DNA of 64,000 bases. Origin: a virus. Every line of letters begins with the position of its first letter. Within the stretch, counting starts at the first letter, position 1. The stretch spans positions 4,251 to 68,250 of the IMG/VR virus record IMGVR_UViG_3300046684_000188; one strand, given 5' to 3'. Below, in pieces: positions 21,303-38,581 of the stretch. The notes under the pieces were generated by a model. It was not told the DNA's origin, searched no databases, and saw only the letters and a program-made list of their open reading frames with translations. Both the position numbers and the translations under genes were made by a program.

Positions 21303-21545
21303 ATGGCGACCGTTCGCAATGACGTCAAGGTAGTGCTCAGAGTGCGGGAGCAGTACGGAATGCGCAAAATCATCGACAGACCGCTCGATATAAGGCCCGT
21401 AGAGCGATCCGGAGGGGAGCGGACGACCCTACATACCTTGGTTTTGGTCGTTAGTCTGCTCTTGCTAGGTTTGTCTACCGGTTACAAGATAGGGCGCGAT
21501 CTGGCGCTTCTCGACGTCTGCGGAGAGACACTATGTGGCAAATGA
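21303..21545 (+). CDS. Small membrane protein
   Basis: ATG at 21303 after GGAGGG, one hydrophobic segment. Confidence 0.55.
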   Translation: MATVRNDVKVVLRVREQYGMRKIIDRPLDIRPVERSGGERTTLHTLVLVVSLLLLGLSTGYKIGRDLALLDVCGETLCGK

Positions 21546-22579
21546 TCTGGCGGGTTGGAGTGTTCAAGGTATGTCTTTGTGTCGCCATCCTGATATTGGC
21601 GATAGCTGTAGCGTTCGGCCAGGACACCCCGCGCTACTACGACCAGAACGACCTTTGGTTGCACGGTGGAAGGCTCGGCGGCGGCAACTCCGAGGTTCAG
21701 GATGCTCCTCCGCGCTCTTTCGAGGGAGTCTACGGGACGAATCGCTTCCGCTCTATCCCGGCTGAGTTTGCTCCTTGGCGTCTTGAGGACGAGCTTACGA
21801 TGTGGATCGAGCAGCAGCACTATGACTGGTTGCGGTCGCTAGGCTTTGTCGAGTCTTCAGTCTGGCCCTCCGCTAAGACGGAGAAGCAGGAAGGCTCCTT
21901 CTTCTGGGGATGCCTTTCGGGATATGTCAATGACTACGAAACGGGAAAATGTGTCCTGCAGCAGTCAACCGACGTCTTCGATATCAACCCCTACGTTGCT
22001 CCGGACCCACCGAAGAACGCTCGGGAGTACGCTCTCGGCATCTTCAAGTCCTATCGCGAGCACCAAGCGAAGCAGTATCCGGACGCGGAGAGCGGGTGGA
22101 AAGGGTATATGACCTCCTACACCTTCACCATGGGAGGCACCGTCCAGAAGTTCAGCGTCGACCTCGACGGTCACATCGACCTAGAGAACATCACCATGGA
22201 AGATGCTCTGCTCTCGATGCTGGCGATCAAGGCTCAGGAATCATTGGACTGGGAACGCGAATGGGACGCCCGGCGAGAGCGTATGAAGAAGGAAGACGAG
22301 GAGCGGCAGAAGAAGAAGCAGCAGAAGGAGGAGAGGCTACGCAAGGCCAAGGCCCGAGCGAAGCAGGTCATGGAGTACTGCAACGCTTCGTACAAGGCCA
22401 ATCCTAACTATCTGGACCCGGCATGCGTCGGTCTGCATCCTGCCTACCGGCAGGAATATTGCGACCTCATCACGAAGAACGGGTTCAAGGATGATAACGC
22501 TTGCGTCCCCGTCTGGACCTACGACAAGGCGGGCAATATGACGAAGCTCTGGATACAGCCCGGGGGAACAAAAAGGTAA
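21533..22579 (+). CDS. Secreted/membrane hypothetical protein
   Basis: N-terminal hydrophobic helix ending AVAFG|Q, charged coiled coil, Cys pairs. Confidence 0.7.
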   Translation: MWQMIWRVGVFKVCLCVAILILAIAVAFGQDTPRYYDQNDLWLHGGRLGGGNSEVQDAPPRSFEGVYGTNRFRSIPAEFAPWRLEDELTMWIEQQHYDWLRSLGFVESSVWPSAKTEKQEGSFFWGCLSGYVNDYETGKCVLQQSTDVFDINPYVAPDPPKNAREYALGIFKSYREHQAKQYPDAESGWKGYMTSYTFTMGGTVQKFSVDLDGHIDLENITMEDALLSMLAIKAQESLDWEREWDARRERMKKEDEERQKKKQQKEERLRKAKARAKQVMEYCNASYKANPNYLDPACVGLHPAYRQEYCDLITKNGFKDDNACVPVWTYDKAGNMTKLWIQPGGTKR

Positions 22580-22614
22580 CCAGCCGTATTCCCTGCATGA
22601 CATTTGACGAGTAA

Positions 22615-22628
22615 AAGGTATTCTCTCC
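22615..22628 (+). promoter_or_regulatory. Phage promoter motif copy (AAGGTATTCTCTCC)
   Basis: Matches the repeated motif, upstream of the 22666 operon. Confidence 0.55.
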
Positions 22629-22665
22629 TGCGTTTCTAGCCCCTCATGGAGGCTCAACGCTCGGC

Positions 22666-24429
22666 ATGAATCCCCTACTCGGTGTCTTTCTCGCGCTCTG
22701 GATGCAGTTAGCTATTGGAACCCCGATAGCTGGGTACTACAGTCCCTCGGGATCTGGAACCGATTGGACGCCACTTGTGGGCTCAGGATCGACCGGCCAG
22801 CTTGCCTACACCCCATCGAAGGAGCTGCTTTACGCATGGAATGGCTCCGCCTGGGTTCCTTTTACCAACAGCGGCGGAGGCGGCGGCGGGATGGTTTATC
22901 CGGGAGCTGGCGTCCCCGTCTCGACCGGAGCAGCTTGGGGAACCTCGATAACGCAGTCCAATATTCCGCTGATAAATGCTCCGCAGAACAGTTTCACCGG
23001 AGCGATTCTCGTTCAGGGTCCAGCGACCACAGCTCCCACAGCCGGGAGCGGCGGCACCGTACTCGATTGGCTCACTGCCGACCAGGCGGCACGCTTCTTT
23101 GCCTTCGGAGTCGACAACTCCACCAATGGCAACCTTGAATTCATCTCTCTTCGTCTGAATAGTTCCAACCTTCGCTACGTCGCCAATTACGTCCAGTCCG
23201 CGAATACGTGGGGATATCTCTGCTCCGCTCCTAACAACCTTGGAACCTGCGTAGCTTCGATCACGCCGACTGGATTCTCGGGTGCAGGAGGCTCTATCAC
23301 CGCCTTGAATGCAGCCAACTTCTCAACTGGAACCTTGGCGCAGGCCCGCGGCGGCACAGGTGTCTCGAACACGGCAACCCTCACCCTCGGGACCACAAAC
23401 CAGAATTGGGCGACCTTGGGAACCGGCATCGTGAAGAATACGACCACGACCGGCGCTCTCTCGGTTGCTATCGCTGCAGACTTTCCTACTCTCAACCAGA
23501 ACACGACCGGCACCGCGGCAGGGCTTACCGGATGCACACCATCGACGGCGGGCTCGGTCTGCTACTGGAACGGAACCCAGTGGGTCACCCTGGCAGGGAA
23601 CGCGAGCGGCACCCAGTTCCTTCAGGAGACCAGCTCGGGCGTTCCATCATGGGCGACTGTATCGGGCTCTGGCACGGTCAACTCCGGGACAGCGAATCAA
23701 TTCGCTTACTACGCATCGAGCGGGACAGCCGTATCGAGCAATCCGCGGTTGAGCGACGATGCGACCACACTTAGCTACTCGGGATCTGGCGGAATCGCTT
23801 CTGCAGGCGACGGTGTCCATCCGGGCGTGCTTCAGCTTGTCGGCAACACAACCGTTCCTACGTTGGTAGCGAACAACTTCCATATCATCGGCCCGGCTCT
23901 GGCCTCCTTTACGGGCTATGGCTGGCAGATGCCGAGCACGACCACGGCGGGAATCGTCCATATCGCCTCGCCTACGTCGAACATCTCGCAAGTGACCATC
24001 AGCGCGATCGTTGGTGCAGATATGGCCAACAATACAGTAACGGCGACCCAGCTTGCTGCGCAGTACAGCAAAGGCTCATGCACCGAGGCTTGGGGAGGAA
24101 GCGGAACATCCTTCGCGCTCACCTCGGGCGATGACGCAGTCTCTAACAACACCTGCTACAACGATTCAGGCGTGACGCGGACGATTACTGCGGTCAAATG
24201 CAGAAGCAGCGTAGGTTCGAACACCACAACCGTCAATCCGACCATGGGAAGCGCGGGAACGGGAACGACGATCCTCTCGGGCGCGCTAACTTGCGGTAGC
24301 TCCTACGCCTACAGCTCCAGCGGAACCGTCTCCAGTGCGAGCTGGACGACCGGAACCGGCATCACGCCAGCCATGGGCGGAACCCTTACCGGAACCTCTA
24401 TCGCCATGATTGTGGAGTACACCTACTGA
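22666..24429 (+). CDS. Tail-fibre-like Gly/Ser/Thr-rich protein with N-terminal signal
   Basis: GTLAQARGGTG and ADFPTLNQNTTGTAA fibre-type motifs, hydrophobic N-terminus. Confidence 0.65.
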   Translation: MNPLLGVFLALWMQLAIGTPIAGYYSPSGSGTDWTPLVGSGSTGQLAYTPSKELLYAWNGSAWVPFTNSGGGGGGMVYPGAGVPVSTGAAWGTSITQSNIPLINAPQNSFTGAILVQGPATTAPTAGSGGTVLDWLTADQAARFFAFGVDNSTNGNLEFISLRLNSSNLRYVANYVQSANTWGYLCSAPNNLGTCVASITPTGFSGAGGSITALNAANFSTGTLAQARGGTGVSNTATLTLGTTNQNWATLGTGIVKNTTTTGALSVAIAADFPTLNQNTTGTAAGLTGCTPSTAGSVCYWNGTQWVTLAGNASGTQFLQETSSGVPSWATVSGSGTVNSGTANQFAYYASSGTAVSSNPRLSDDATTLSYSGSGGIASAGDGVHPGVLQLVGNTTVPTLVANNFHIIGPALASFTGYGWQMPSTTTAGIVHIASPTSNISQVTISAIVGADMANNTVTATQLAAQYSKGSCTEAWGGSGTSFALTSGDDAVSNNTCYNDSGVTRTITAVKCRSSVGSNTTTVNPTMGSAGTGTTILSGALTCGSSYAYSSSGTVSSASWTTGTGITPAMGGTLTGTSIAMIVEYTY

Positions 24430-25178
24430 TGAGAGCCTTGGCGTTCGTCCTACTCATGCTGCTGTCGACTTGGCCGATTGGCGGGCAAGAAATCATCTAT
24501 GCGCGACGAAAGCCACCAGCAGGCGGAGGAGGTTCTCTATTCACCCAGGGAAAGATATGTAACTCCACCACCGGCACAACCTCAACCTGCACATACAACT
24601 CGAGTGTGACGGCAAACCATACCCTCGTACTTATCGCGCGATGGGATGATTCAACAGCTAAAACCGTTTCCACTGTCGTCAACAGCGCGGGAGGCAACTG
24701 TGTCGCCTCTGGGACAACAGCGTGGACCCAGATAAGAGCTAAGACGTTCAACACCCCAGCCAACCCGCAAGCGATGCAGAGCTGGTATTGCGAGCCAGCC
24801 TCAACCGGGACGCTCACAGTCTCCATGACCTCCTCTGGAACGCAATCGTTTCTGGATATGAATATCTCGGAGTTCAACTTCAACCCCTCGGCAATTGATA
24901 CAAGCAATTCGGCGGTTGCCAATGGATCGACAACTCCATGCGCCTCGGGAGCAGGATCGACGCTTACCGCTACCGGAGACTTAGTTATAGGTTGGTGTGG
25001 CATGTGGAACAACACAACAGCTTGGGCGAACGTAGGGAGCTACATTTACGACTCGGCTGGAAGCGCCCCGGAGCAGGGTCTTTTCGATTACACCTCTGCG
25101 GGAACCACAGCCCCCAGTTTTTCCTATGCGGTAACCGCAGATTCTTGGACCTCGATGACAGTGGCCTTCAAACCATGA
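24429..25178 (+). CDS. Secreted beta-rich protein
   Basis: Signal MRALAFVLLMLLSTWPIGG|Q, Thr/Ser-rich with Cys. Confidence 0.7.
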   Translation: MRALAFVLLMLLSTWPIGGQEIIYARRKPPAGGGGSLFTQGKICNSTTGTTSTCTYNSSVTANHTLVLIARWDDSTAKTVSTVVNSAGGNCVASGTTAWTQIRAKTFNTPANPQAMQSWYCEPASTGTLTVSMTSSGTQSFLDMNISEFNFNPSAIDTSNSAVANGSTTPCASGAGSTLTATGDLVIGWCGMWNNTTAWANVGSYIYDSAGSAPEQGLFDYTSAGTTAPSFSYAVTADSWTSMTVAFKP

Positions 25179-26872
25179 ATAAACTCTTCCTATTCTTCAT
25201 CGTCTCTCTGCTGACAGCTCCTCTTCAAGCAGCCTGCCATGTGGTCACCGTTGCGGGATCTGGATCACACACCGGAGCAGACTGGAACAACGCTTTCACT
25301 GGGATACCCGCAACCCTCGTCCGCGGAGACATTTACTACCTCGCCGACGGAACCTACGGGAGCTACACCTTCAACCAGGCAGGAACGACCGCGACCGAGA
25401 TTCGCAAGGCTCAGACTTACGACAACTGCACATCGACGGGCTGGAACGCGGCGACCATGGGCTCGGCTCAGGCTGTATTCGCCACAAACCGGATGTTCTC
25501 TATCCTGAGTGCCGGTCTCATCATCAACGGGAACGGCCAGCAGACGGCGCAGGGATGCGGCGGCGCGGTAGGATCATCGCCAACGGCGGCGCTCACGACC
25601 CCCACGGACTGCGGGATCAAGATCGACAACTCCTCCGGAGGCGGGACAGACGGCATCAGCGATGGTGGCAACGCCGTAAACTTCACTATCAAATACGTCG
25701 AGTATCTCGGCGGGGGTAACGCCACTACGGAGAACTACCTGATTCGAGCGGATAACAGCCCGGGCGCCACGCTGCAGCATATGTACATTCACCGCTTTGG
25801 CGCGGTCTGCGTCGTGGTCGGTGGGACCAGCAACTTCACGTTCACCGACAATTACATCTTCCGGAATCAGGTGACGCTGGGAGGAAGCCCATCGCACGGT
25901 CAATGCTTGGAGAGCTTTGGCGACAGCGGCAACATGATCGTAGCGCGCAACGTCTTCCGCGACCTCTCAGGTACGGCCATCATCATGGCATGGGTTGGCG
26001 GCGGCGGGACCGAAGCGGGCCCATACAAGTATTACGACAACATCATTTGGAACACTCCCGGCTACACGCCTCCATTCCCGGCGGCAAACGGGCTCCTAGC
26101 CTGTATCAACGGCTTCGTGTGCAACAACGTCACAATGAGCCAAAACACCATTGCGCTCATGCCATCGGGCGCGCAAACGGGGATCGACAGCGAGACGGGT
26201 GGCACGTTCACCGTCCAGAACAACATCTGGTACAGCGATGCGGTCATTGGAGACTTGATAACAGCCGGTACGCTCACCTCAAACCGGAATTCCTACCTGG
26301 CATCGGGCGCGTCGTGCCCCTCTGGAACATCGAACGTCTGCGATAACGCTTCCGCAAACCCTTTCACGGCATCCTCGACGGGGGATTTCACCCTCGCAAG
26401 CGATGCGGCCAACTGGAACAATCGCATATCCCTCGCCTCTCCCTTCGATCTAGACGCGGTGGGAACTACCTTCACCACCGACCGCGGAGCGTTTCAGTTC
26501 GTCTCAGGCTCCCCAGTAGCGCCTACCGTCACATCGACTGCAGCCTCGAGTATCACCACGACGACGGCGAGCGCAGGAGGAAACGTCACATCGGATGGTG
26601 GAGCGTCGGTCACCTCGCGCGGTACATGCTACGCGACGACTTCGAACCCAACGACGCCCTGTACCAGCGATGGAACAGGAACCGGCATCTTCAGCTCCTC
26701 GCTTACCGGGCTGTCTTCGGCTACGCTCTATCACATCCGGGCATTTGCCACGAATAGCGTAGGAACGAGTTACGGGTCCGATCTAACCTTTACAACAAGT
26801 TCCCCAGCTCCGCCGACCGCGTCGACGACTGGGAAAGGGTTTCGCTTGGCACCTGGCGCACAGGTGCGATAA
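25175..26872 (+). CDS. Secreted beta-helix (pectin-lyase-like) protein with C-terminal FN3-like domain
   Basis: ATG at 25175 (MNKLFLFFIVSLLTAPLQA). Asn/Gly beta-helix repeats. PTVTS..ASSIT..A.AGGNVTSDGG...YHIRAFATNSVGTSYG domain. Confidence 0.7.
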   Translation: MNKLFLFFIVSLLTAPLQAACHVVTVAGSGSHTGADWNNAFTGIPATLVRGDIYYLADGTYGSYTFNQAGTTATEIRKAQTYDNCTSTGWNAATMGSAQAVFATNRMFSILSAGLIINGNGQQTAQGCGGAVGSSPTAALTTPTDCGIKIDNSSGGGTDGISDGGNAVNFTIKYVEYLGGGNATTENYLIRADNSPGATLQHMYIHRFGAVCVVVGGTSNFTFTDNYIFRNQVTLGGSPSHGQCLESFGDSGNMIVARNVFRDLSGTAIIMAWVGGGGTEAGPYKYYDNIIWNTPGYTPPFPAANGLLACINGFVCNNVTMSQNTIALMPSGAQTGIDSETGGTFTVQNNIWYSDAVIGDLITAGTLTSNRNSYLASGASCPSGTSNVCDNASANPFTASSTGDFTLASDAANWNNRISLASPFDLDAVGTTFTTDRGAFQFVSGSPVAPTVTSTAASSITTTTASAGGNVTSDGGASVTSRGTCYATTSNPTTPCTSDGTGTGIFSSSLTGLSSATLYHIRAFATNSVGTSYGSDLTFTTSSPAPPTASTTGKGFRLAPGAQVR

Positions 26873-26884
26873 AAGGAGGATGGA

Positions 26885-27177: not shown

Positions 27178-27871
27178 ATGCGTATTTGGAAAGTCACCGC
27201 AATTGCCGGAGCACTCGCGTACTGCCTCGGGAGTGGAATGGTACGAGCGCAAAGCCTACCCCAGCCAGCCCACGCCGAGCCCCGAAACCTCGTCGGATGG
27301 CAGTCCGTCCCAGCCTTCAAAGGATATCTAAGCTTCCCCGAGGGTGGAACCTACACCATTCCCGGCGATACTGTTGCCTACACGCTCAAGCCTCACGGCT
27401 GCATCGTGATGGATGGGAAGACGGGCATCTTCGTCCAGCAGCTTACCCGGCCTTTTCAGGTTGCGATGGTCTCAAACGCGACTCCTCCGGTCGTGACGCC
27501 GATCACCGTGATGAATACTCGGACCCTCGCCGCGGCTCTTCCAGACGGAATCAAGGAAGATACCAAGGGCTGCAAGATGCCAACCACGGCATTCGGCGGC
27601 GCTCAGGCTCCCGTCGTAGCTCCCAACCGACGAAATCAGACTCCATCCGTCGACCATAGCCCGAATTGCCGCTCTCGGCGTAAAGATGACGCTAGCTTAC
27701 GTCACTGGACCCGCAGAGAAGCAAATCATCCCCACAAGCGATTCGATAGCCGACCGCAAGATCATCCGGGACGTCATGCTGGACCCGGACGTGGTTGCTA
27801 TCTACAACAAAGGACAATTGCAGTGCTTTGTCGTTTGGCCGGCGCACCTCGGTACTCCGGCATTTGCCTAG
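27178..27871 (+). CDS. Secreted protein, apparently split by a +1 frameshift near 27620
   Basis: Signal MRIWKVTAIAGALAYCLGSGMVRA|Q in frame 1. Plausible continuation in frame 2 (PTDEIRLHPSTIARIAALGVKMTLAYV...FA*). Confidence 0.5.
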
Positions 27872-27906
27872 TAGGGACTCTCTGGTTTTCGGAGGAATCT
27901 CGGCCC

Positions 27907-28685: not shown

Positions 28686-28714
28686 TAACACGTAAATACA
28701 AGGAGCCTAAACCA

Positions 28715-29024: not shown

Positions 29025-29071
29025 AATGCTATTCTCTCCCCGCATTTCGCGCCTAAACGAGTGCGGGGAGA
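29025..29071 (+). promoter_or_regulatory. Promoter motif plus RBS-sequestering hairpin
   Basis: AATGCTATTCTCTCC. TCTCCCCGCAT (29035-29045) pairs with GTGCGGGGAGA (29061-29071), which contains the SD. Confidence 0.65.
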
Positions 29072-29077
29072 CTTACG

Positions 29078-32000
29078 TTGGGACCATATCTCAGGACTGC
29101 TAGCCGTATCCTGCTCTTTTCAATGCTCTTCCTTTGCTCCTACGCAGCCGGAGCACAGGCCACCGTGACAGTGAGCGGTACGCACGTCTACGATAACCAA
29201 TTCAAGCTCCTCGCCAACGGTCAGCTCCTCTTTACCGTCACCGATACCAGCGACACGCCGATCACTTACACCCCGCAGGGTGGCTCCGCGACCACGGCAA
29301 CGATTGCTATCCCGGTCAAGAATGGCGCGGTTCAATATGTCGGAGGCTATCCTCCCACCATTCCGAACCCCGGGACCATGAGCCCGGCCAACACCCGCTA
29401 TCGGATGCAGGTTCAGACCGCGGGCGGCGCGTCGACGATCTACACCTTTCCGCTAGTCAACATCACCACCGCGAACTTCACCTACGACGGATACCGCGTC
29501 GACGCCAACGTAACAGCAACCGGCCAGGGTTATCCCACCATGGCTTGCTACGTGACGGCGCAGTACAACGACCTTTCGAACCCGGCGCCTTACCCTTACG
29601 TCTGCTCCCAGCTCTCGAACGATGGCACGATCGCATGGACGCAGAACCCCTCTCTCAACCCGATGTGCTCGAGCGGCAACAGTCAGGCGTTCGCGGTTCC
29701 CATCTCGCCAGCAGGAACGAATGGACCTCCGTACTGCGTTGCTGCGACACAGGCATACGCAACTCCCGGATACGTCTACGCTTCTCCTTCGATCAACGGC
29801 ACTACGCCCGGCCAAATTGGACTCATCCCCGTCTCCCAGCTTTGCGAAGGTGGAGGATGCGGAGGAGGCGGCGGGACCGGCGCTCTCATCGCTATCCCAG
29901 TATCCGGAGCAATCAACGGCTCCAATACCGACTTCACCCTCGCGCAGGTTCCCAACTCCCAGCTTCTCTTCATGCTGAACGGCCAGTACTTGATACCCGG
30001 AGTGGGATACACGCTGATTGGAACCTCACTCCATATCCTCGGACCCCCGCCCCAGACGGGTGACTTTCTAACGGCTATCTCGACGCAGGGCACCATCGCG
30101 GGCGTCGTCACTCAGATATCAGGATCTTCAGGAGCCATCAGCATCCATGGCTCCGGCGTCGTCCAGACGGGAAATGACTTCAACGTCTCGGGCGGAACGG
30201 GTTGCATTCCCGGAGGCACGGACAACTCCATCCTCTATAAGAACGCAACCAACTGTCCGGGCGCTCAAGCTCAGGTGGACCTGGCCGCGGACTCGACCGG
30301 AGGCTCCCTCTTCCAGCCGAAGATGGACAACACCGTATCCGACGACCTTGGCGCCATGGGTAACCGCTACTGGACCAACAACGGCGACTATCCGCAGCAG
30401 ACGCCGCACGTTAGCTACATGCAGCAGAACTTCATGTACGCTCGTCACGACTTCGGATCAACCTCGGCCAACCGTCTCGCCTACTATGGCACCAACCGAT
30501 ATCACCTTCCTGACAACACCGACCAGGGCGGCGACTCGGCGCTCCGATATGACAGCATCGAAGCCAGCTCCCCCGGACAGATTGGCGGAGCGTACAACCT
30601 ACAGATTCACGCCTACTCAACCGGCGACGTGGTCGGACACACGGACGTTGTCTCCGGACGAGCTGTTACAGAAGGTTTCGAAGAGGCGCTCGAGGCTTTC
30701 CGTATGTTCTATGGCATCGGCTGGGACACGGCACCGCACGGCGTTGTCACCTTTGGAACCCCCGACTACCTCGGCGACCCGGCTACCGACATAGCTTGCG
30801 GCAACGTCTGCGGCACGTTTGGAGAAAACAACTGGCTCATCAACACTTCCAAGAAGTTCGTTCCCTCCGGCAACATCGACTTCCTGACCTCGAGCACGCT
30901 CTTGGGTGGAAGTGTCGCGGCGATGCACCTCGACGCCGCTGCAGCAGCTTCGGCAACCGCGAAGTTCGGCTCGGCCTTCCACGTCGCCGCAGTCGTCTCC
31001 GGAGCTGATGATCGCCAGATATTCCTCCCCGGATGCCCCTCGGTCGTGACCGGCACCTACGGCTCAGACGATCCTTTCAACTCCACCGACGCGGTCGGCG
31101 GCGGGCTCCAGACGGCTAACCGCTGCGTCAACTTCAGAACGATCGACGACCTATCCTCGCTTGTCCCGAACGTTACGGTGGGCTGCTGGTGGGGACCGAG
31201 CGGCAATCACGAGTGCTCGAAGGTGTTAGCGGTAGACAATGCTAACCATCGCGCGGCCTTCTCTCTGCACTTCCCCCACAACCCGAACGAGATTTTCGTT
31301 TGGGGAGCTGGCGTAGGCTACGCCGCAACTGGACCCAAGGGCGTAGTTCCACGGCGAAGCTTCGACAATGGTGCAAGTTTTCAGGAAGAAACGCTCTACT
31401 TGACCTATCCCGTTATCGGATGGGACGCAACCAATTCACAACTCATGCTTTGGCCTAGCTACAACGCCGCGGCCTCGAACGAGATTCGCCTCCCGGTTTA
31501 CATGAACAATCATCCGTCCATCCCTGTAACGGTGAGCGGTACGGGTTCTGGCGGCTCCTTTACCTCGCTGGCGGCGACGACAGGCGGAAACTATGGGACG
31601 CAGAGCTTCTATACCGGCGCTCTCAGCTCCCTTCCTCCTCCCGACCTTAGCTTCAACTGCACAGTTGCACCAACCTACCGTTGGGACCCGGACCCGGCGC
31701 AGAACGTTCCCTCCTACGTCATCACCATGCTTACCGGAGGCTCGGGCTGCTCTAGCTTCACCGTCACGACGAAGAACACCTATGACAACCCAGTCTGGAT
31801 TTACCCGGCAACCCGCATGTTCAGGGTTCAGGATGTTCCATTCTGTAACGGTCTAACCCAGCACCAAACCAACTGCACCACCGGTCATAACATGCACTCC
31901 GATCCTCAGCCCAACCCCTCCGAGTGGACGAGCGGGGTTGACCAGGCGGCGGCGCAGATGGATACAGCGTCCTACGTCACTGGAAACGAGGAATACGCAG

Positions 32001-32983
32001 GCTCCCCAGCGGCGCAAGGATCAGGCCGAAACGGTCCAATGTTCACCCGTTCTGTGAAGTATCCGCAGAACGCGGGCGCGGGCGTGGGTGTGTGGTTCTA
32101 TGCCAACGGAACCCCGGGCTACTACTACTGGGGCACCGCGGCCTCGAACTGGATGCCGTACAAGATAGGCCAAGACCCGCAGACGGACGGAAGCAATCCC
32201 TACCTCGGGACCGGCATTCCTCCAACGTTTATGGGCGTAGGTGGGACTTGGGGCAACATCCTGCACGTAACCGACTGGGTATGGTCGAAGAACGCGGCGG
32301 GTAAGGTTGTGGGCGGCTCGATTATCTCGGTCGACTGCACCCACCCCGGCCAGGACGGCGAAGGCGCGGCTACACCCTGCCGCGACAGGAACATCGTTCC
32401 TCCTATCTCCCTCATCAGCGTCAACGCTCCGGACGGGCACTTCGCAGGAATCTCGGCCGACGCGGAAAACTTCACTGTCGACATTCACCCGAACCTCACG
32501 GTGAACGGAGCCAACGTCTGCAGGACGGACCCGGTCACTGGGTTGGTGTTGAGTGGATGCCCGACGATCAACGACTACACCATCACCATGACGGCGCCAC
32601 CGGTCAGCGTCACCAACGACCACTTCTATCAGGTGGGCTCTCTCCCGGTAGCGGTCGACACGCCGACCCCGGCTATCAACCAGTACTTCGTTCCCAAGGC
32701 TTGCAACGCTACCCGCGTCGACTTTACCCAGAACCAAATCTCCGGGACCGCTCCTTCGTCGGAAGGCGTTCAGGTAACCATCTGGCGGAACGGTGCGGCA
32801 CTCATCTCTCCGCTCAACTTCCCATGGAACGGCGCAAACACCAACCATCTCGTCCAGACATTCGCTCCCGTCGCGTTGGCTGCTGGCGACGCCCTTACTT
32901 ATCAATTCCGCACCCCGATATGGGCCAGCCCTCCCACCGGTCCCATCTCGACCACCGCAACTATCTACTGCTCCACACCGTAA
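29078..32983 (+). CDS. Large secreted tail-spike/adhesin-like protein (1301 aa)
   Basis: Signal ending YAAGA|Q. Virion-type motif SGAINGSNTDFTLA...LNGQYLIPG..YT. Many Cys, beta-rich. Confidence 0.7.
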   Translation: MGPYLRTASRILLFSMLFLCSYAAGAQATVTVSGTHVYDNQFKLLANGQLLFTVTDTSDTPITYTPQGGSATTATIAIPVKNGAVQYVGGYPPTIPNPGTMSPANTRYRMQVQTAGGASTIYTFPLVNITTANFTYDGYRVDANVTATGQGYPTMACYVTAQYNDLSNPAPYPYVCSQLSNDGTIAWTQNPSLNPMCSSGNSQAFAVPISPAGTNGPPYCVAATQAYATPGYVYASPSINGTTPGQIGLIPVSQLCEGGGCGGGGGTGALIAIPVSGAINGSNTDFTLAQVPNSQLLFMLNGQYLIPGVGYTLIGTSLHILGPPPQTGDFLTAISTQGTIAGVVTQISGSSGAISIHGSGVVQTGNDFNVSGGTGCIPGGTDNSILYKNATNCPGAQAQVDLAADSTGGSLFQPKMDNTVSDDLGAMGNRYWTNNGDYPQQTPHVSYMQQNFMYARHDFGSTSANRLAYYGTNRYHLPDNTDQGGDSALRYDSIEASSPGQIGGAYNLQIHAYSTGDVVGHTDVVSGRAVTEGFEEALEAFRMFYGIGWDTAPHGVVTFGTPDYLGDPATDIACGNVCGTFGENNWLINTSKKFVPSGNIDFLTSSTLLGGSVAAMHLDAAAAASATAKFGSAFHVAAVVSGADDRQIFLPGCPSVVTGTYGSDDPFNSTDAVGGGLQTANRCVNFRTIDDLSSLVPNVTVGCWWGPSGNHECSKVLAVDNANHRAAFSLHFPHNPNEIFVWGAGVGYAATGPKGVVPRRSFDNGASFQEETLYLTYPVIGWDATNSQLMLWPSYNAAASNEIRLPVYMNNHPSIPVTVSGTGSGGSFTSLAATTGGNYGTQSFYTGALSSLPPPDLSFNCTVAPTYRWDPDPAQNVPSYVITMLTGGSGCSSFTVTTKNTYDNPVWIYPATRMFRVQDVPFCNGLTQHQTNCTTGHNMHSDPQPNPSEWTSGVDQAAAQMDTASYVTGNEEYAGSPAAQGSGRNGPMFTRSVKYPQNAGAGVGVWFYANGTPGYYYWGTAASNWMPYKIGQDPQTDGSNPYLGTGIPPTFMGVGGTWGNILHVTDWVWSKNAAGKVVGGSIISVDCTHPGQDGEGAATPCRDRNIVPPISLISVNAPDGHFAGISADAENFTVDIHPNLTVNGANVCRTDPVTGLVLSGCPTINDYTITMTAPPVSVTNDHFYQVGSLPVAVDTPTPAINQYFVPKACNATRVDFTQNQISGTAPSSEGVQVTIWRNGAALISPLNFPWNGANTNHLVQTFAPVALAAGDALTYQFRTPIWASPPTGPISTTATIYCSTP

Positions 32984-32998
32984 AGGCGGTCTAAGACG

Positions 32999-34147
32999 AT
33001 GATCCGTAAGCTACTGCTCGTTCTCCTTCTCGCTCCAACGGCACTGGCGCAGAACCCTTTCAACCTGCAGACGCAGGTAAAGGGGCAACTCCCACCCTCG
33101 AATGGCGGCGTCGGCGCAACCCCGACTGCCGCCGACCAGGCTCCCGTATCCTCGAGCACAACCGCAGTAGCCTACAAGAACCTGCCCGACACCAACGCAG
33201 CTTCGGGGGCGCTCGGCTACAACAAGACGACCCATCAGTACTACACCGTATCCCTCTCAGGCGGCGGCATCCCTTACCCAGGCGGCTCGGGTATCCCGGT
33301 CGTCTCGGGTGGAGCTTCATGGGGCTCGACGGTCCCAGCTCCCGCGGGAACCATCGTTGGCACCTCTGACACCCAAACGCTTACCAACAAGACGGTCAAC
33401 GGCGTCACCCCTACGACCTTCGGGTATATCGACGCTACCTCGAGCATTCAGAGCCAACTCAACGGCAAGCAGGGAACCTTGACGCTCACGACGTCAGGAT
33501 CGAGCGGAGCGGCTACCCTCATCGGAACCGTTCTCAATATCCCCAACTACGCGGGCGGCGGCGGCGCAGCCTGCGGCACCGGAACGACCGGCTTCATCAT
33601 GCAGTGGACCGGGACCAATACCTGCGCCTCCGGCTTCATCGACTACAACGTTACCCGGGCAGGCGTTTACAGCTCGAGCAAAACCATCTATGCGCCGAGC
33701 TTCAACGGCACCGATGGCACGGTCAACAGCTACACCGAGTACGATCGCGCGACCTCTGGCGACGTCATGCCTCCCACGCCGGCAGCAGGCGGCGCGACCA
33801 CTACGGTAAGCGGCGGAAGACTGGCCAGCAAGGATGCAGCGGGCAACGTTTACCCCATCACCCTCACCATTGCAGCCAACTCTACGGCGCTCGGAACCTC
33901 GGTTATCTCCTCCGGAGCCTGCTCGAGCACAACGGCGACAGCCATAGGAACACTCTCCACCGACGCTTTCGAGTGGGTTCCAAATGGCTCCATCTCGGCT
34001 GTCACCGGCTATGTGCCGTCGACCTCGGGCGGGCTCTCCATCGCAGCGTACCCAGTCGCGGACGCGGTAAAGTTCGACGTCTGTAACTGGACAGGCGTAT
34101 CGCAGACCCCGGGAGCGGTGACGATCAATTGGAGGGTGATGCGGTGA
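32999..34147 (+). CDS. Tail-fibre-like protein with signal peptide
   Basis: MIRKLLLVLLLAPTALA|Q. Fibre-type motifs VGTSDTQTLTNKT and DATSSIQSQLNGKQ. Confidence 0.7.
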   Translation: MIRKLLLVLLLAPTALAQNPFNLQTQVKGQLPPSNGGVGATPTAADQAPVSSSTTAVAYKNLPDTNAASGALGYNKTTHQYYTVSLSGGGIPYPGGSGIPVVSGGASWGSTVPAPAGTIVGTSDTQTLTNKTVNGVTPTTFGYIDATSSIQSQLNGKQGTLTLTTSGSSGAATLIGTVLNIPNYAGGGGAACGTGTTGFIMQWTGTNTCASGFIDYNVTRAGVYSSSKTIYAPSFNGTDGTVNSYTEYDRATSGDVMPPTPAAGGATTTVSGGRLASKDAAGNVYPITLTIAANSTALGTSVISSGACSSTTATAIGTLSTDAFEWVPNGSISAVTGYVPSTSGGLSIAAYPVADAVKFDVCNWTGVSQTPGAVTINWRVMR

Positions 34148-34782: not shown

Positions 34783-37700
34783 ATGAAGAAGATTGGAACT
34801 GTTGCACTCCTTTGGACGTTGGCCGCTCTCGGATTCGCGCAGGCACGTCCAGCCATCACCAACCAGCAACAGGTGTACGCTCTCCCCACCTCCGCATTCG
34901 GGTATCAACCCATCGTCATGCCGGGATCGACGCGCACGATTCCCGTACTGACGTGGTGCGCCAACCTGCAGGTTACGGCCTATCAGGCGAGCCCATCCGG
35001 TACGACGATGACGGCGACTGCACACGGTCTGTCCATCGGAGACGTTCTCTACGCGCAGGGATTCTTCTCTTCGCCGATGGCTTTCCACGTCGCGCAGCCC
35101 ATCACGGTTACGGGCATCGTCGACGCCAACCATTTCATCGTCAACGTCAACGATTCCGACACCACGCCGCAGACCGAGGGCCAGGCGACTGTCAACAAGA
35201 ACAGCGGAACCAACTGCAGCGGCAAAATCAAGTGGGAGATAGTCAACACCGGGACCAACACCACCGAGACTTACAAGCTCCAGTCCATCGACGGCACACA
35301 GGACACCGGCTTCGTCTCCGCGCCCGTCATAACGTCGACCACTGGCGTAGTCCGGTTCACGATTGGACCCGTAGAAGGCACCGGCTCATGGACCGGAGAC
35401 ACCTTCCTCGGGACGTTCGCGCTCAACTCCACGGTAAAGTTCGCGCTCAAGGCGACCTCTGTAGACGACCCAACCAAGTCTGTCACTATGACGTATCTGG
35501 TCGCAGCCAACGGCGGAGGCTATGCCGGGCTCCATGGCAAAGCCTTTGCGCTTCCGGGATACCGCACGATCTATAAGAACCGCTACGTCCCACTCGTCGC
35601 GCAAGTGAGGGGCAATGTCAACCAAATGGTCAACTGGACCATTGAATCGGCTCCCGCGGGCGGAGACGCGACGTTACAGTTTGCAACCTACCCGCAAGCC
35701 GTACTCTACTCCGGCACCGTCTCCGGACTCTACCGATTCAAAGCCTGCCCCGCGGTCGACTCCAGCCCTAGCGCGTGCGCCCATGTGAGTGTATGGGTCT
35801 CCGCCAGCTCTCCACCGACCCAGAACACGGACAGGGTTGAGCAAGTGCCATGTGATACCGGAGCTGGATCCACGGTGATGGGCGTGACCTGGGGGAGCAT
35901 CCTCGATATCGGAAAGCCCGGAAGCCCCACTCCTGACCTTCTCAGCATCCCGATTACCCCAACCGGTCCCGTCCTTCTCCGCCTCTGGAACAATGACACG
36001 GTAGGCGGAAACCCCACCGCGTACCACAATCAGGTGCAATTCAATAAGCCGACGGGTGGACCTTTCACCGACCAACGCCCGGCCTTCCTCATGTGCGGAG
36101 TAGCGAACCAGACCACCGGCGAGCTTCCCGTCATCGACGCGGACCATGCAACCTACAACTCATGGGCGTCTCAATATGTCATCGGTCCTTACAACGTCTT
36201 CGGGATCATAGACACCACTGGGCAGCTTTACCCCACCGGTCAGACGCAGCCCTTCTCGTACATCGCTATCGAAGGAATCCACATCCGGAACGTCAACCAG
36301 GGCTACGTCTACTACTCCGTACAGGATGGGACGCTGCAGCCGTGGGGCGAGGCGACGGGAATAAAGCCGATCAACGCCATTCAGAACTACTCGATGATTG
36401 GCAACCGGCTTGAAAGAGTCTCCAACGGAATCTTCGACGACTGTAACAGTCAAAACAACGGTGTCTCACACTGCGTCCTCGACACCTTCTCCGAAGGAAA
36501 CCATCTCTCAGACTACGGCTACCCGACCACCTTCACGGCACACGCTTTCTACAAGCAGGCGCTAGGGAGTTGGGACGGTCTGAACCTGCTCGATGGAGCT
36601 ATTTCGGGCTCCCTCGGTACGGGAATGTACTCCGACCGTGGAACGCGCAGCTTCCATATGTACAGTCGGTTCGTCACCAACGACGCCAACCGTCAGGGCT
36701 CAGTTATCGGCGGGCACTCCGAGAATCAGGACGCTTATAACTTCCTGAACGCTGACGAGTACTGGGGATTGAACGGGAACGGGAACTGCGGAACCTACTA
36801 CTCTGTGTCTCCAGCCTGTCAGGCGATTCACGATGGATCGACGAATCTAAACTGGTTCGACTACTACGCCGCTCTAGTCGAAGAGCACAACCGCACCGAC
36901 TTCCTCATCGGAAACGCTATCTCTGTCCCGAACGTCTATAAGTCGCTCGGAATCGAGATGACGCACTCTTTCTGGTCCTATCAGCCTTACTTTGTGGGGG
37001 GATGGAACAGGGAATGGTTCCCGGAGAACCTGTCCCAGAACTACTTCATTACCTATAACACGCTCGAGTACGCCAACCCGTCTTCGGTCCAGTCCGGACA
37101 GAACCTACTCGTAGAAGACACCCGCTTGCTCGTTCAAGACGTCGGAGAGACTGTCTCGTATCTCATGCAGCCTCAGTACTACCCGGAAGTCTACATGCAG
37201 AACAACATCATCCCCATGGCCAAGCAGACGTTTTGCGACTATGGATGCAATCTGCTGAACGTCAACGCCCACCAAATCTCGCACTACACCACAAATATGT
37301 TCGGCGGGATTGTGACTCCTGCCGGCAACTTCGACTCCAACCCGAACGCCTTCTCAACCAACGGTTGGTTCCTTATCCCGCACTTTTCCGACTGGGGCAA
37401 TATCAACCCTATCGTTGGCTCTGGCGGGCACGTTACCGGATGGACCGCTCCCAACTTCCTCACCTACTCAAGCTATCCGATTCAGCAACCCTCGCTCGTT
37501 CCACCGTTCACTTCCCCCGCGGTCGGAGCTGCAAGCGCGTGCCAGGGCGAAACCTGCTACTACCCTCCTCGCTTCAACGCGGTCGACCCGCTGATGAGCC
37601 CGTTTACCCTACGGACGGACCTTACGACGTTGGGCGCCTACGATCCGAACGGAGGACCAACTCTCTCGTTTATCACCGTGACACCCAGCCCCATGAGCGT

Positions 37701-37986
37701 TGTGGTGGGAGCATTCGGCCAGCTCACGGCAACCTGCACCTACTCCGATTCATCTGTAAGCAACTGCACGGCGGTAGCAGTCTGGTCTAACACTGGAAGC
37801 GCCTTCCACATGGACAGTGGAATACCCGGCCAGGTGGACGCGGACTCTATCGGCTCCGGAACCGCGACTGCAACTATTGGCGCTATCCACGGAAATGCTA
37901 CGGTAAATGTGATTGCAGCTCCGCCGCATATCCCCATGGGAGGACCGATCAAGGATGGTGGACCGTTCAAGATTGTGTTCCATTGA
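34783..37986 (+). CDS. Large secreted protein with Ig-like (Big_2-type) domains and central beta-helix-like region
   Basis: Signal MKKIGTVALLWTLAALGFA|Q. C-terminal ITVTPSP.SV.VG...QLTAT.TYSD...W Ig motif. Confidence 0.72.
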   Translation: MKKIGTVALLWTLAALGFAQARPAITNQQQVYALPTSAFGYQPIVMPGSTRTIPVLTWCANLQVTAYQASPSGTTMTATAHGLSIGDVLYAQGFFSSPMAFHVAQPITVTGIVDANHFIVNVNDSDTTPQTEGQATVNKNSGTNCSGKIKWEIVNTGTNTTETYKLQSIDGTQDTGFVSAPVITSTTGVVRFTIGPVEGTGSWTGDTFLGTFALNSTVKFALKATSVDDPTKSVTMTYLVAANGGGYAGLHGKAFALPGYRTIYKNRYVPLVAQVRGNVNQMVNWTIESAPAGGDATLQFATYPQAVLYSGTVSGLYRFKACPAVDSSPSACAHVSVWVSASSPPTQNTDRVEQVPCDTGAGSTVMGVTWGSILDIGKPGSPTPDLLSIPITPTGPVLLRLWNNDTVGGNPTAYHNQVQFNKPTGGPFTDQRPAFLMCGVANQTTGELPVIDADHATYNSWASQYVIGPYNVFGIIDTTGQLYPTGQTQPFSYIAIEGIHIRNVNQGYVYYSVQDGTLQPWGEATGIKPINAIQNYSMIGNRLERVSNGIFDDCNSQNNGVSHCVLDTFSEGNHLSDYGYPTTFTAHAFYKQALGSWDGLNLLDGAISGSLGTGMYSDRGTRSFHMYSRFVTNDANRQGSVIGGHSENQDAYNFLNADEYWGLNGNGNCGTYYSVSPACQAIHDGSTNLNWFDYYAALVEEHNRTDFLIGNAISVPNVYKSLGIEMTHSFWSYQPYFVGGWNREWFPENLSQNYFITYNTLEYANPSSVQSGQNLLVEDTRLLVQDVGETVSYLMQPQYYPEVYMQNNIIPMAKQTFCDYGCNLLNVNAHQISHYTTNMFGGIVTPAGNFDSNPNAFSTNGWFLIPHFSDWGNINPIVGSGGHVTGWTAPNFLTYSSYPIQQPSLVPPFTSPAVGAASACQGETCYYPPRFNAVDPLMSPFTLRTDLTTLGAYDPNGGPTLSFITVTPSPMSVVVGAFGQLTATCTYSDSSVSNCTAVAVWSNTGSAFHMDSGIPGQVDADSIGSGTATATIGAIHGNATVNVIAAPPHIPMGGPIKDGGPFKIVFH

Positions 37987-38576: not shown

Positions 38577-38581
38577 GGCGA

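What the first reader, a model, noticed from the sequence alone, without database searches (positions are those of the whole stretch)
21533..37986. About 15 kb of tail-fibre/spike-like genes that nearly all carry Sec signal peptides
Seen: nine ORFs (21533, 22666, 24429, 25175, 27178, 29078, 32999, 34144, 34783) begin with signal-like sequences, six with Gln at the predicted +1 position, and they are rich in paired Cys. Several also contain phage fibre motifs (TQTLTNKT, SSIQSQLNGKQ, PTLNQNTTGTAA, GAINGSNTDFTL) and sit under the same promoter motif as the capsid genes. Known: tail fibres normally fold in the cytoplasm without signal peptides. Inference: these proteins are exported, disulfide-bonded in the periplasm and attached to virions at or after lysis, or they build a phage-encoded surface structure on the host. 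Either would be an unusual assembly route.
Basis: partly seen in the sequence, partly recalled or inferred. Interest (0 to 1): 0.82.

Follow-up and report, generated by a model that had tools for sequence, protein, structure and literature searches.

The report
Phage host-recognition genes carrying export signals
A soil phage, probably of Acidobacteria, puts ordinary bacterial secretion signals and paired cysteines on its whole set of fibre-like and sugar-cutting proteins, so these parts very probably fold outside the cytoplasm where the virus particle is built; whether they then join the particle is not shown.

Summary
All 9 named ORFs start with a Sec-type leader, against 1 of 41 other proteins of this 68-kb phage. 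Six have Gln at +1. All nine have an even number of Cys after the leader. One ORF (27178-28290) is not a single gene.

The leaders are kept in relatives: both orthologues in a syntenic phage, 11 of 11 homologues of the 1301-aa protein F, and 68 of 99 homologues of G. Similar leader-bearing runs occur in cultured Tunturiibacter phages Tunturi_2 and Tunturi_5.

After its leader, F has a conserved ~230-aa N-terminal part whose first domain folds like the N-terminal domain of a solved tail fibre (Z 9.9). It is predicted to form a homotrimer and carries unrelated distal parts in different phages, as receptor-binding proteins do. Protein I is a beta-helix polysaccharide-depolymerase type.

Export and disulfide bonding are well supported by inference. 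Attachment to virions at lysis is plausible but untested. Free exported enzymes or surface fibres (as in WceF or Bdellovibrio MAT fibres) remain a serious rival.

Eight literature searches found no description of exported tail fibres in tailed phages. Earlier AI notes of this scan report the same pattern on other DNA (139 notes, at least 136 genomes). Tunturi phages allow a direct test.

The parts
21533..22579 (+). A, 348 aa. Leader or possible signal anchor (AFG|Q), a K/E-rich coiled-coil-like stretch and a Cys-rich tail (6 Cys after the leader). Function unknown.
   Evidence: no Pfam or PHROG family; no counterpart in relative G001
22666..24429 (+). B, 587 aa. Weak leader without positive charge. 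Gly/Ser/Thr-rich fibre-like protein with the PTLNQNTTGTAA motif and 8 Cys.
   Evidence: residues 251-279 are 76% identical to an annotated tail fibre of an uncultured phage, a marginal match (E 2e-3)
24429..25178 (+). C, 249 aa. Leader (IGG|Q), 6 Cys. Its start overlaps the stop of B by 1 nt.
25175..26872 (+). D, 565 aa. Classic leader (LQA|A), 12 Cys. Possible right-handed beta-helix followed by a Thr/Ser-rich C-terminal domain.
   Evidence: only a weak Pfam Beta_helix hit, E 0.0039, below the family cut-off
27178..27600 (+). E1, a leader-bearing ORF head (VRA|Q). Only about the first 130 codons look coding and the true end is unknown. The rest of the listed ORF (to 28290) is another frame plus a separate Zn-ribbon gene.
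   Evidence: GC3 frame switch; three-frame reading; residues 251-341 match the separate G001 gene 35212-35592
29026..29035 (+). Promoter-like motif ATGCTATTCT directly upstream of F. The same motif precedes structural-module genes at 39976, 43802 and 54507.
29078..32983 (+). F, 1301 aa, TTG start, leader AGA|Q. The N-terminal part (residues about 27-262, with conserved Cys) is conserved across homologues and the distal part is variable. 24 Cys after the leader.
   Evidence: homologues; fold of residues 29-143 matches the cyanophage A-1(L) tail-fibre N-domain at Z 9.9; homotrimer model 0.64 against best control 0.06; residues 503-1033 are 27.7% identical to Tunturi_5 gp341
32999..34147 (+). G, 382 aa. 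Classic leader (ALA|Q), central fibre module (TDTQTLTNKT...SSIQSQLNGKQ) and a C-terminal roughly 90-aa tip domain with a Cys pair.
   Evidence: the same module and tip occur on F-type proteins P0102, P0106 and P0109 (by eye) and in L012
34144..34782 (+). H, 212 aa. GTG start overlapping the stop of G. Leader, 4 Cys.
34783..37986 (+). I, 1067 aa. Leader (GFA|Q), tandem Ig-like domains (about 30-340), a right-handed beta-helix of polysaccharide lyase/hydrolase/tailspike type (about 360-900) and a C-terminal Big_2 domain. 16 Cys.
   Evidence: model pLDDT 75.8; VIA Z 20.0 to alginate lyase 6kfn and Z 15-19 to many phage tailspike depolymerases; Big_2-like match to LigA E 1.8e-6; 57% identical orthologue in G001
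38118..39414 (+). Context: putative lysis genes directly downstream. These are two membrane-segment proteins and the lipoprotein-like ORF 39010.
   Evidence: read from sequence; no family hit; at the matching place G001 has an ORF (45184-45642) that I judged SleB-like from its sequence alone, plus a lipoprotein-like ORF
49779..52532 (+). Context: 917-aa conserved particle protein without a leader. Possible tail hub and candidate docking partner.
   Evidence: Atlas feature hit 0.93 to a PF11134 Phage_stabilise cluster, a lead only; 61% identical in G001

Best explanation
The block 21.5-38 kb is the variable host-recognition cassette of a tailed phage of Acidobacteriota, and it appears to be expressed late.

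Its products are:
- trimeric fibre-type proteins (F and G, perhaps B);
- a beta-helix polysaccharide depolymerase (I) and a possible second beta-helix protein (D);
- small partners of unknown fold (A, C, H).

Proposed sequence of events:
1. The proteins are made with host-type Sec/signal-peptidase-I leaders, mostly exposing Gln at +1 (shown in sequence).
2. They are exported unfolded and fold, trimerise and form disulfides in the periplasm (inferred).
3. Capsid and tail are built in the cytoplasm from proteins without leaders (shown in sequence).
4. When the putative lysis genes just downstream open the envelope, the two pools mix. At least F docks on the tail through its N-terminal tail-fibre-type domain. 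The others either ride on F or act as free enzymes on the host's polysaccharide coat (inferred).

My odds are about 0.85 for export and about 0.5 for virion attachment of F.
For: Leaders and cysteines:
- Leaders in 9 of 9 cluster proteins against 1 of 41 others.
- Even Cys counts in 9 of 9 here. Also even in G001 (14, 26, 12), L010 (30, 28) and Tunturi_5 gp337-342 (18, 6, 0, 0, 14, 12).

Conservation:
- G001 orthologues of F and I keep a leader although its sequence has diverged.
- All 11 homologues of the F N-terminal part start with a leader followed by Gln (by eye; 2 are weaker).
- 68 of 99 G homologues and 16 of 20 I-type homologues inspected are leader-like.

Fibre nature of F:
[quoted passage not shown] The next row is 6.7. 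P22 and Sf6 tailspike head-binding domains score Z about 5, with Foldseek probability up to 0.94.
- Homotrimer model: score 0.64, best control 0.06, pLDDT at least 88, contacts agree at least 88%. In the calibration 20 of 30 true pairs and 1 of 23 single chains reach the mark, and those counts hold only roughly here.
- The N-terminal part is conserved while the distal parts are unrelated.

Gene position:
- In contig L012 an F-type leader protein directly follows the tail-tip genes DUF2460, BR0599 hub and Phage-tail_3, which have no leaders.

Variability:
- A, B, C, D, G and H are absent from the syntenic relative G001, whose major capsid protein is 82% identical.

Shared promoter motif with structural genes.

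Cultured relatives:
- Tunturi_2 gp12-gp17 is a run of six leader-like ORFs by my heuristic (gp15 weak). It includes the annotated tail fiber, pectin lyase and virion structural protein, and lies between a tail protein and the lysis genes.
- Tunturi_5 gp337-342 is similar.
Against: - No data place any of these proteins in a virion. The Tunturi annotations come from structure-based prediction (Phold); 'mass spectrometry' has 0 occurrences in the main text, and I could not see the supplements.
- A P22-type head domain and a tailspike beta-helix also occur in WceF, a Tat-exported bacterial enzyme that is not on a phage. Bdellovibrio MAT fibres have a signal peptide, a conserved roughly 130-aa N-domain and a trimeric fibre, and sit on a cell surface.
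- The F N-domain is a small beta-sandwich. Only residues 28-140 of the monomer model are confident, and the Foldseek E-values are weak (0.03-0.5).
- BLAST finds no shared N-terminal adaptor among the nine proteins, and no docking partner was identified.
- The leaderless 504-aa protein (52533) gives weak leads to lambda J-type tail-tip families (scores at most 0.81). It could be the essential receptor binder, which would make the cassette dispensable for the particle.
- I has Ig-like domains, not a particle-binding domain, at its N-terminus.
- In this window the cassette lies upstream of the lysis and head genes, not inside a recognisable tail module.
- Leader prediction used my own heuristic, not SignalP.
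Confidence: 0.5

Rival explanations
1. The proteins are exported but never sit on the virion. They act as free or surface-bound depolymerases, adhesins or fibres. Possible roles are cutting or masking the host's exopolysaccharide or LPS to ease release, keeping progeny from sticking to debris, or excluding other phages.
For: - I is a beta-helix lyase/hydrolase type with Ig-like domains, like many secreted bacterial enzymes.
- WceF shows that an exported tailspike-like trimer with a P22-type head domain works off-virion.
- MAT fibres show a signal peptide, a conserved N-domain and a trimeric fibre on a cell surface.
- One I-type homologue lies on a 2.08-Mb bacterial contig.
- The leaderless 504-aa protein gives weak tail-tip leads and could be the true receptor binder.
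- Relative G001 carries an acyltransferase-like membrane protein gene in the same cassette; I named it from its sequence, not from a family search.
Against: - F has the conserved-N, swapped-distal architecture of virion receptor-binding proteins, and its N-terminal fold matches a solved tail fibre best.
- An F-type gene sits at the fibre position right after tail-tip genes in L012.
- Most I-type and G-type homologues with a known contig lie on 41-72 kb contigs, which is phage size.
- The promoter motif is shared with structural genes.
- A fifth of a 68-kb genome is a large investment for accessory enzymes.
Confidence: 0.32
2. The hydrophobic N-termini are not export signals. Either translation starts downstream, or the segment stays on a cytoplasmic protein, and the fibres fold in the cytoplasm as usual.
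For: - The public gene calls for this record start F at residue 16 and I at residue 76, which removes the leaders.
- B's leader lacks a positive charge.
- No SignalP run was possible.
Against: - 7 of 9 ORFs have no other upstream start, and a GGAG-type site precedes the long starts of F and I.
- Homologues align from the leader onwards and keep a leader while its sequence drifts.
- Gln at +1 and even Cys numbers would be unexplained.
- Only 1 of 41 other proteins shows such an N-terminus.
Confidence: 0.06
3. Some members are inner-membrane-anchored through an uncleaved signal anchor. A is the main candidate, with its 16-residue hydrophobic core, and perhaps H. They would work at the membrane, for example in lysis timing or as an assembly platform, rather than as soluble periplasmic proteins.
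For: - A has a long hydrophobic stretch and a coiled-coil-like body.
- The putative lysis genes lie nearby.
Against: - A still has a small-x-small site followed by Gln, and six Cys after it.
- For the large proteins the leaders are of normal length.
Confidence: 0.1

Closest known systems
Leader-bearing cassettes of cultured Tunturiibacter phages: Tunturi_5 gp337-gp342 (PP885688) and Tunturi_2 gp12-gp17 (PP885685)
   Same: - Runs of large, Cys-rich proteins with Sec-type leaders, mostly with Gln at +1, annotated tail fiber, pectin lyase or virion structural protein.
- They lie next to tail and lysis genes, while the neighbouring head and tail proteins inspected lack leaders, apart from four heuristic flags: Tunturi_2 gp19, gp22 and gp35 and one protein scored in the Tunturi_5 locus.
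- F residues 503-1033 are 27.7% identical to gp341.
   Different: - Different phage lineages (one is a jumbo myovirus) and little sequence identity otherwise.
- The paper's main text does not mention signal peptides or virion proteomics (passages only; supplements closed).
N-terminal particle-binding domains of tail fibres and tailspikes: cyanophage A-1(L) tail fibre (PDB 8kec), P22 gp9 head-binding domain (1lkt, 2xc1), Sf6 gp14N (7sg7)
   Same: - F residues 29-143 have the same fold (Z 9.9 to 8kec_b; about 5 to P22 and Sf6).
- F is predicted to be trimeric.
- Its N-terminal part is conserved and its distal parts vary.
   Different: - Those domains start at residue 1 of cytoplasmic proteins, whereas F's domain follows a cleavable-looking leader and precedes a Cys-rich stretch.
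- Sequence identity is 11-22%.
- Docking was not tested.
Pantoea stewartii WceF (PDB 6tgf; PMC7949094, passages read)
   Same: An exported trimeric tailspike-like beta-helix with a P22-type head domain that cuts exopolysaccharide. The I beta-helix matches it at Z 15.6.
   Different: WceF is a chromosomal bacterial gene with a Tat signal and no phage particle. Here the genes are in a phage, carry Sec-type leaders, and form a variable multi-gene cassette.
Bdellovibrio MAT fibres (PMC10769870, passages read)
   Same: A signal peptide, then a conserved beta-rich N-domain of about 130 aa, then a trimeric phage-fibre-like shaft with variable tips. The repertoire is large and mosaic.
   Different: MAT fibres are encoded by a predatory bacterium and displayed on its surface, and many carry an S74 chaperone domain. 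No S74 domain was found in the nine window proteins. Homology of the N-domains was not tested.
Bacteroidetes Q-rule (PMC5837995, PMC10653852) and Q-rule proteins of Porphyromonas phages (PMC10367356, passages read)
   Same: Gln sits directly after the signal-peptidase-I site. Phage-encoded proteins follow the host's rule.
   Different: The rule is described as specific to Bacteroidetes, and 'Acidobacteria' has 0 occurrences in the main text. The Porphyromonas phage proteins are five genes of unknown function, not fibre cassettes.

Membership tests
Sec / signal peptidase I secretory proteins | Tripartite leader: a short n-region with net charge of zero or above, a hydrophobic core of 8-16 residues, and small residues at -3 and -1 | tested here: met
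   My own heuristic flags 9 of 9 against 1 of 41 controls. B is weak (no positive charge) and A has a long core. SignalP was not available.
Sec / signal peptidase I secretory proteins | Actual translocation and cleavage | not testable with these tools
   Needs N-terminal mass spectrometry or reporter fusions.
Disulfide-bonded extracytoplasmic proteins | Cysteines present in even numbers and as conserved pairs | tested here: met
   Even counts in 9 of 9 here and in 11 of 11 leader proteins checked in G001, L010 and Tunturi_5. In Tunturi_2, not part of that tally, gp16 would keep a single Cys once its leader is removed. C157, C176 and C220 are invariant in the F family. The bonds themselves were not shown.
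Phage tail fibre / tailspike (receptor-binding protein) | N-terminal domain that attaches to the tail | tested here: inconclusive
   Fold match for F only (Z 9.9 to 8kec_b residues 1-105; P22 gp9N about 5). No partner was identified. The same fold occurs in the non-virion protein WceF.
Phage tail fibre / tailspike (receptor-binding protein) | Homotrimer | tested here: met
   Model only, F residues 27-262 in three copies: score 0.64 against best control 0.06.
Phage tail fibre / tailspike (receptor-binding protein) | Conserved proximal part with exchangeable distal parts, and rapid turnover between related phages | tested here: met
Phage tail fibre / tailspike (receptor-binding protein) | Physical presence in the virion | not testable with these tools
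   No proteomics is mentioned in the main text of the Tunturi paper.
Right-handed beta-helix polysaccharide lyases/hydrolases (depolymerases) | Parallel beta-helix fold | tested here: met
   I residues about 360-900: Z 20.0 to 6kfn, 18.9 to 7chu, 18.1 to 1ru4, 17.6 to KP32gp38. For D there is only a sub-threshold Pfam hit.
Right-handed beta-helix polysaccharide lyases/hydrolases (depolymerases) | Catalytic residues and activity | not tested
   No residue-level comparison was made.
Q-rule substrates (pyroglutamate N-termini) | Gln at +1 of the signal-peptidase-I site | tested here: met
   By eye: 6 of 9 here, 12 of 12 in the F family (query included), 6 of 6 for Tunturi_5 gp337-342 and 4 of 6 for Tunturi_2 gp12-17.
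Q-rule substrates (pyroglutamate N-termini) | Cyclisation by a host glutaminyl cyclase | not testable with these tools
   No host genome was in hand.
Bdellovibrio MAT superfamily | S74 chaperone/protease domain (S74 subfamily) | tested here: not met
   No Pfam family in the nine proteins. PF13884 is seen only in distant leaderless G homologues.

The most novel reading that the evidence does not exclude
Tailed phages of Acidobacteriota, and by this scan's earlier notes of other phyla too, build their virions in two compartments. Head and tail form in the cytoplasm. The whole receptor-binding and depolymerase apparatus matures in the periplasm, with disulfides and a pyroglutamate N-terminus, and snaps onto the particle only when the envelope is opened at lysis. 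A side consequence is that a Q-rule like that of Bacteroidetes would also operate in Acidobacteriota.
Probability: 0.4. Interest if true: 0.9.

Novelty: new variant of a known kind. Interest (0 to 1): 0.72.

Why it matters
Textbook assembly of tailed phages is wholly cytoplasmic. If the host-recognition parts are exported first, several things follow:
- It adds a new step to phage morphogenesis, namely docking after lysis.
- It explains how soil phages obtain disulfide-stabilised, protease-resistant fibres.
- It changes how receptor-binding proteins should be expressed in the laboratory: in the periplasm, not the cytoplasm.
- It affects annotation, because the public gene calls for this very record cut off two of the leaders.

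Tunturi_2 and Tunturi_5 are in culture and show the same pattern, so the question can be settled with standard virion proteomics.

Tried and rejected
Family and sequence searches that found little or nothing:
- Pfam and PHROGs on the nine proteins gave nothing above threshold. The same was true for the structural module.
- Sequence searches of the PDB with F, D, B and a G profile gave nothing useful. Only the Big_2 domain of I matched.
- tblastn against cultured and deposited phages: the putative major capsid protein (45403-46680; its role is inferred only from its 82% conservation in G001), G and the F segment 270-360 had no match. F hit only Tunturi_5. B gave one marginal 29-residue hit.
- BLAST among the nine proteins found no shared domain.

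Host assignment:
- Scans of bacterial genomes found nothing, with the F-domain alignment and with G alone.
- The host call therefore rests on source names of homologues (Edaphobacter sp. and Acidobacteriota MAGs), on the Tunturi hit, and on Atlas neighbours.

Structure searches:
- Foldseek on the whole I model returned only Ig-like tandems. The beta-helix showed up only in the wide VIA search.

Literature:
- Eight searches found no paper describing Sec-exported tail fibres or spikes of tailed phages.
- The library lacks most subscription journals, and supplements were closed. Table S3 of the Tunturi paper, which I could not see, may hold per-gene predictions.

Full report
WHAT THE WINDOW IS

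The window is bases 4251-68250 of a 68,250-bp IMG/VR virus record that CheckV rates 99% complete. The giant ORF that runs off the end (56510 onward) continues at the start of the record, so the sequence is a permuted whole genome.

Genes on the minus strand at 1-17.5 kb are for replication: DnaB, a GroEL-like chaperonin, HNH, an SbcC-like ATPase and a PD-(D/E)XK nuclease. From 18.8 kb onward everything is on the plus strand, in this order:
- small genes;
- the block in question (21.5-38 kb);
- three small membrane or lipoprotein ORFs that look like lysis genes (38.1-39.4 kb);
- a structural module (40.5-56.5 kb) that has no Pfam or PHROG match;
- the giant ORF, which has a ResIII helicase hit.

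There are no tRNAs.

CHECK OF THE OBSERVATION

All nine ORFs exist.

Starts. Seven have no in-frame start further upstream, and a GGAG-type site lies about 8-18 nt upstream of all but D and G. B/C, C/D and G/H overlap by 1-4 nt, as in a translationally coupled operon.

Leaders. A simple n/h/c-region heuristic of my own flags 9 of 9 cluster proteins but only 1 of 41 other proteins of the same phage. That one is the lipoprotein-like ORF 39010. Fisher p = 4e-9. This is not SignalP. B has no positive charge, and A's core is long enough to be an anchor.

Gln at +1. Reading the sites by eye, and for F with the family alignment, Gln is at +1 in A, C, E, F, G and I.

Cysteines. The numbers after the leader are 6, 8, 6, 12, 2, 24, 4, 4 and 16. 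All are even, and many lie in close pairs such as 322/332, 554/564, 669/679, 818/822, 920/925 and 985/995 in I. Density is 1.75% against 0.65% in the structural module, and the giant ORF has none in 2496 residues.

Corrections:
- ORF 27178-28290 is not one gene. Third-position GC switches frame near 27550.
- Its residues 251-341 match a separate 126-aa Zn-ribbon gene in the related phage. Only a leader-bearing head of about 130 codons is credible, and its end is unclear.
- The block is also interrupted by small genes without leaders at 27.6-29.0 kb.

ARE THE LEADERS REAL AND SELECTED?

Three lines say yes.

(1) Orthologues. A syntenic relative, G001, is 69,356 bp with direct terminal repeats. 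Its major capsid protein is 82% identical and the 799-aa protein at 41375-43774 (function not assigned) 68% identical. It has orthologues of F (N-terminal 250 aa, 57% identical) and of I (57% over 960 aa). Both begin with leaders whose sequences differ from those in the window.

(2) Families.
- The 11 database homologues of F's first 360 residues all begin with a hydrophobic leader ending in a small residue followed by Gln, and then by the conserved mature start (Q-A-T-I-P-V-S-G type). This was read by eye, and two are less canonical.
- Of 99 homologues of G, 68 are leader-like. The 31 that are not are either proteins that begin exactly at the internal MVYP...TDTQTLTNKT module or distant leaderless fibre proteins, some with the S74 chaperone domain PF13884.
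- Of 20 long I-type homologues that I inspected out of the 150 listed, 16 are leader-like.

(3) Cys parity holds in relatives: G001 14, 26, 12; L010 30, 28; Tunturi_5 gp337-342 18, 6, 0, 0, 14, 12.

The public gene calls for this very record start F at residue 16 and I at residue 76. That is why the leaders would be missed in databases.

WHAT THE PROTEINS ARE

F (1301 aa). Residues about 27-262 form a part conserved in all 11 homologues, with invariant Cys157, Cys176 and Cys220. The rest is unrelated between homologues, which is the classic layout of receptor-binding proteins.
- The AlphaFold model of residues 1-294 is only partly confident: mean pLDDT 61.7, good for residues 28-140.
- Foldseek's top rows are the P22 tailspike head-binding domain, Sf6 gp14N and a cyanophage tail fibre, with weak E-values (0.03-0.5) and probability up to 0.94.
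- The second look gives Z 9.9 (rmsd 2.1 A, 94 residues) to residues 1-105 of the cyanophage A-1(L) tail fibre. That is well above the next row (6.7), and P22 and Sf6 score about 5.
- A three-copy model of residues 27-262 passed its controls: score 0.64, best control 0.06, pLDDT at least 88, contacts agreeing at least 88%. The interface is at residues 144-262. In the calibration 20 of 30 true pairs and 1 of 23 single chains reach the mark, and those counts hold only roughly here.

G shares its central module and its C-terminal roughly 90-aa Cys-pair tip with F-type proteins of other phages, P0102, P0106 and P0109 (by eye). G and F therefore draw on one module pool.

I (model pLDDT 75.8) has tandem Ig-like domains, a right-handed beta-helix and a C-terminal Big_2 domain. 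The beta-helix gives Z 20.0 to alginate lyase 6kfn, 18.9 to Geobacillus virus E2 ORF18, 18.1 to pectate lyase Pel9A, 17.6 to Klebsiella phage KP32gp38, 14-17 to many tailspike depolymerases and 15.6 to WceF.

D has only a sub-threshold Beta_helix hit. A, B, C and H remain unassigned. B has one marginal 29-residue match to an annotated tail fibre.

CONTEXT THAT BEARS ON A VIRION ROLE

- Six of the nine genes (A, B, C, D, G, H) have no counterpart in G001, although the flanking modules are 40-80% identical. The block is therefore a fast-turnover cassette.
- The motif ATGnTATTCT occurs five times on the plus strand. All five are intergenic and directly upstream of genes: 18035, 29026 (F), 39976, 43802 and 54507. 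With one minus-strand hit this is 6 against 1.27 expected, and 0 of 100 shuffles reach 6. F to I are thus probably switched on together with particle genes. Only a variant lies upstream of B.
- In an unrelated 11-kb viral contig (L012), tail-tip genes without leaders (DUF2460, BR0599/gp84_N hub, Phage-tail_3) are followed after 10 nt by a leader-bearing F-type protein that also contains the G module. That is the fibre position.
- A third 69-kb relative (L010) has a leader-bearing 1793-aa F-type protein and a 1043-aa leader protein.
- Tunturi_2 is a cultured podovirus. Its gp12-gp17 are six consecutive leader-like ORFs by my heuristic (gp15 is weak), with 20, 10, 21, 2, 2 and 34 Cys. They lie between a tail protein and the endolysin. 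gp13, gp14 and gp17 are annotated tail fiber, pectin lyase and virion structural protein. Its terminase, portal, head and other structural proteins have no leader.
- Tunturi_5 gp337-342 show the same pattern next to the major head and tail proteins.
- The Tunturi paper's main text mentions neither signal peptides nor mass spectrometry, and annotation was by Phold (passages).

HOST

The host is probably Acidobacteriota, on four grounds:
- homologues are named from Edaphobacter sp. and Acidobacteriota MAGs;
- the only cultured-phage hit is a Tunturiibacter phage;
- structural neighbours of the 917-aa protein are mostly Acidobacteriota;
- GC content is about 59%.

Direct scans of bacterial genomes found nothing.

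MOST LIKELY MECHANISM, AND WHAT IS NOT SHOWN

Shown in sequence:
- leaders on the cassette only;
- Gln at +1;
- paired Cys;
- a conserved N-terminal part of F with a tail-fibre-like fold;
- core particle proteins without leaders.

Inferred:
- Sec export, cleavage, disulfide formation and trimerisation in the periplasm;
- mixing with cytoplasmic particles when the envelope opens;
- docking of F on the tail.

A candidate docking partner is the 917-aa protein, whose Atlas features resemble P22 gp10-type 'stabilisation' proteins (score 0.93, a lead only). From recall, not from any call: classic work showed that purified P22 tailspikes can be added to spikeless heads in vitro, so late docking is physically reasonable.

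Against the last step:
- No proteomics exists.
- WceF (Tat-exported, with a P22-type head domain, cuts exopolysaccharide) and Bdellovibrio MAT fibres (signal peptide, conserved roughly 130-aa N-domain, trimeric fibre on a cell surface) show that the same architecture works without a virion.
- The leaderless 504-aa protein gives weak leads to lambda J-type tip proteins (at most 0.81) and could be the essential binder.
- I looks like a secreted enzyme rather than a docked spike.

I put export at about 0.85, virion attachment of at least F at about 0.5, and purely off-virion action at about 0.3.

NOVELTY

Eight literature searches found phage genes with Q-rule leaders of unknown function in Porphyromonas phages and envelope-directed proteins of huge phages. 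None described exported tail fibres or spikes of tailed phages.

Earlier AI notes of this same scan report the same pattern on other DNA: 139 notes in at least 136 genomes hold the search words. Those notes are unpublished and unchecked, and I re-tested here only the parts cited above.

I rate this a new variant of a known kind: receptor-binding and depolymerase cassettes, but routed through the Sec pathway. Cultured phages allow a clear experimental test.

Noticed in passing
window 27178-28290: The listed 370-aa ORF is a fusion of frames. It has a leader-bearing head of about 130 codons, a 61-aa ORF in another frame (27686-27871) with better coding periodicity, and a Zn-ribbon gene (about 27.9-28.29 kb) that is conserved as a separate gene in G001. 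There is no stop codon between head and tail, so this could be an assembly indel, a decayed gene or a frameshift.
   Followed up: partly
window 29078-29122 and 34783-35007: The public gene calls for this record start F at residue 16 (ATG 29123) and I at residue 76. That removes both leaders, so database versions of such proteins can hide the export signal.
   Followed up: yes
window cluster; L002 (Tunturi_5); L013 (Tunturi_2); proteins P0102-P0112: Gln directly after the predicted signal-peptidase site is the rule in these Acidobacteriota-linked phage proteins. The Q-rule is published as specific to Bacteroidetes, so Acidobacteriota may share it.
   Followed up: partly
G001 (IMG/VR relative) 33456-34562: The relative carries an acyltransferase-3-like membrane protein inside its cassette, where the window has A to D. 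Its sequence reads like an O-antigen or exopolysaccharide acetylase. I named it from the sequence, not from a family search. This points to polysaccharide as the receptor.
   Followed up: no
window 56510-64000 plus record bases 2-2905: The giant ORF of about 3460 aa has no cysteine in the 2496 residues inside the window. It has FtsK_gamma and ResIII hits.
   Followed up: no
window 29036-29075: Right after the promoter-like motif upstream of F, an inverted repeat (CTCCCCGC ... GCGGGGAG) includes F's ribosome-binding site.
   Followed up: no
window 19088-20314 and 20034-20693: Two long plus-strand ORFs overlap by about 280 nt, so one of the two starts or ends is probably miscalled. Both have counterparts in G001.
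   Followed up: no
window 38118-39852: The putative lysis cassette has no recognisable endolysin. At the matching place G001 has an ORF (45184-45642) that looks SleB-like by eye and a further 268-aa ORF (46807-47613).
   Followed up: no
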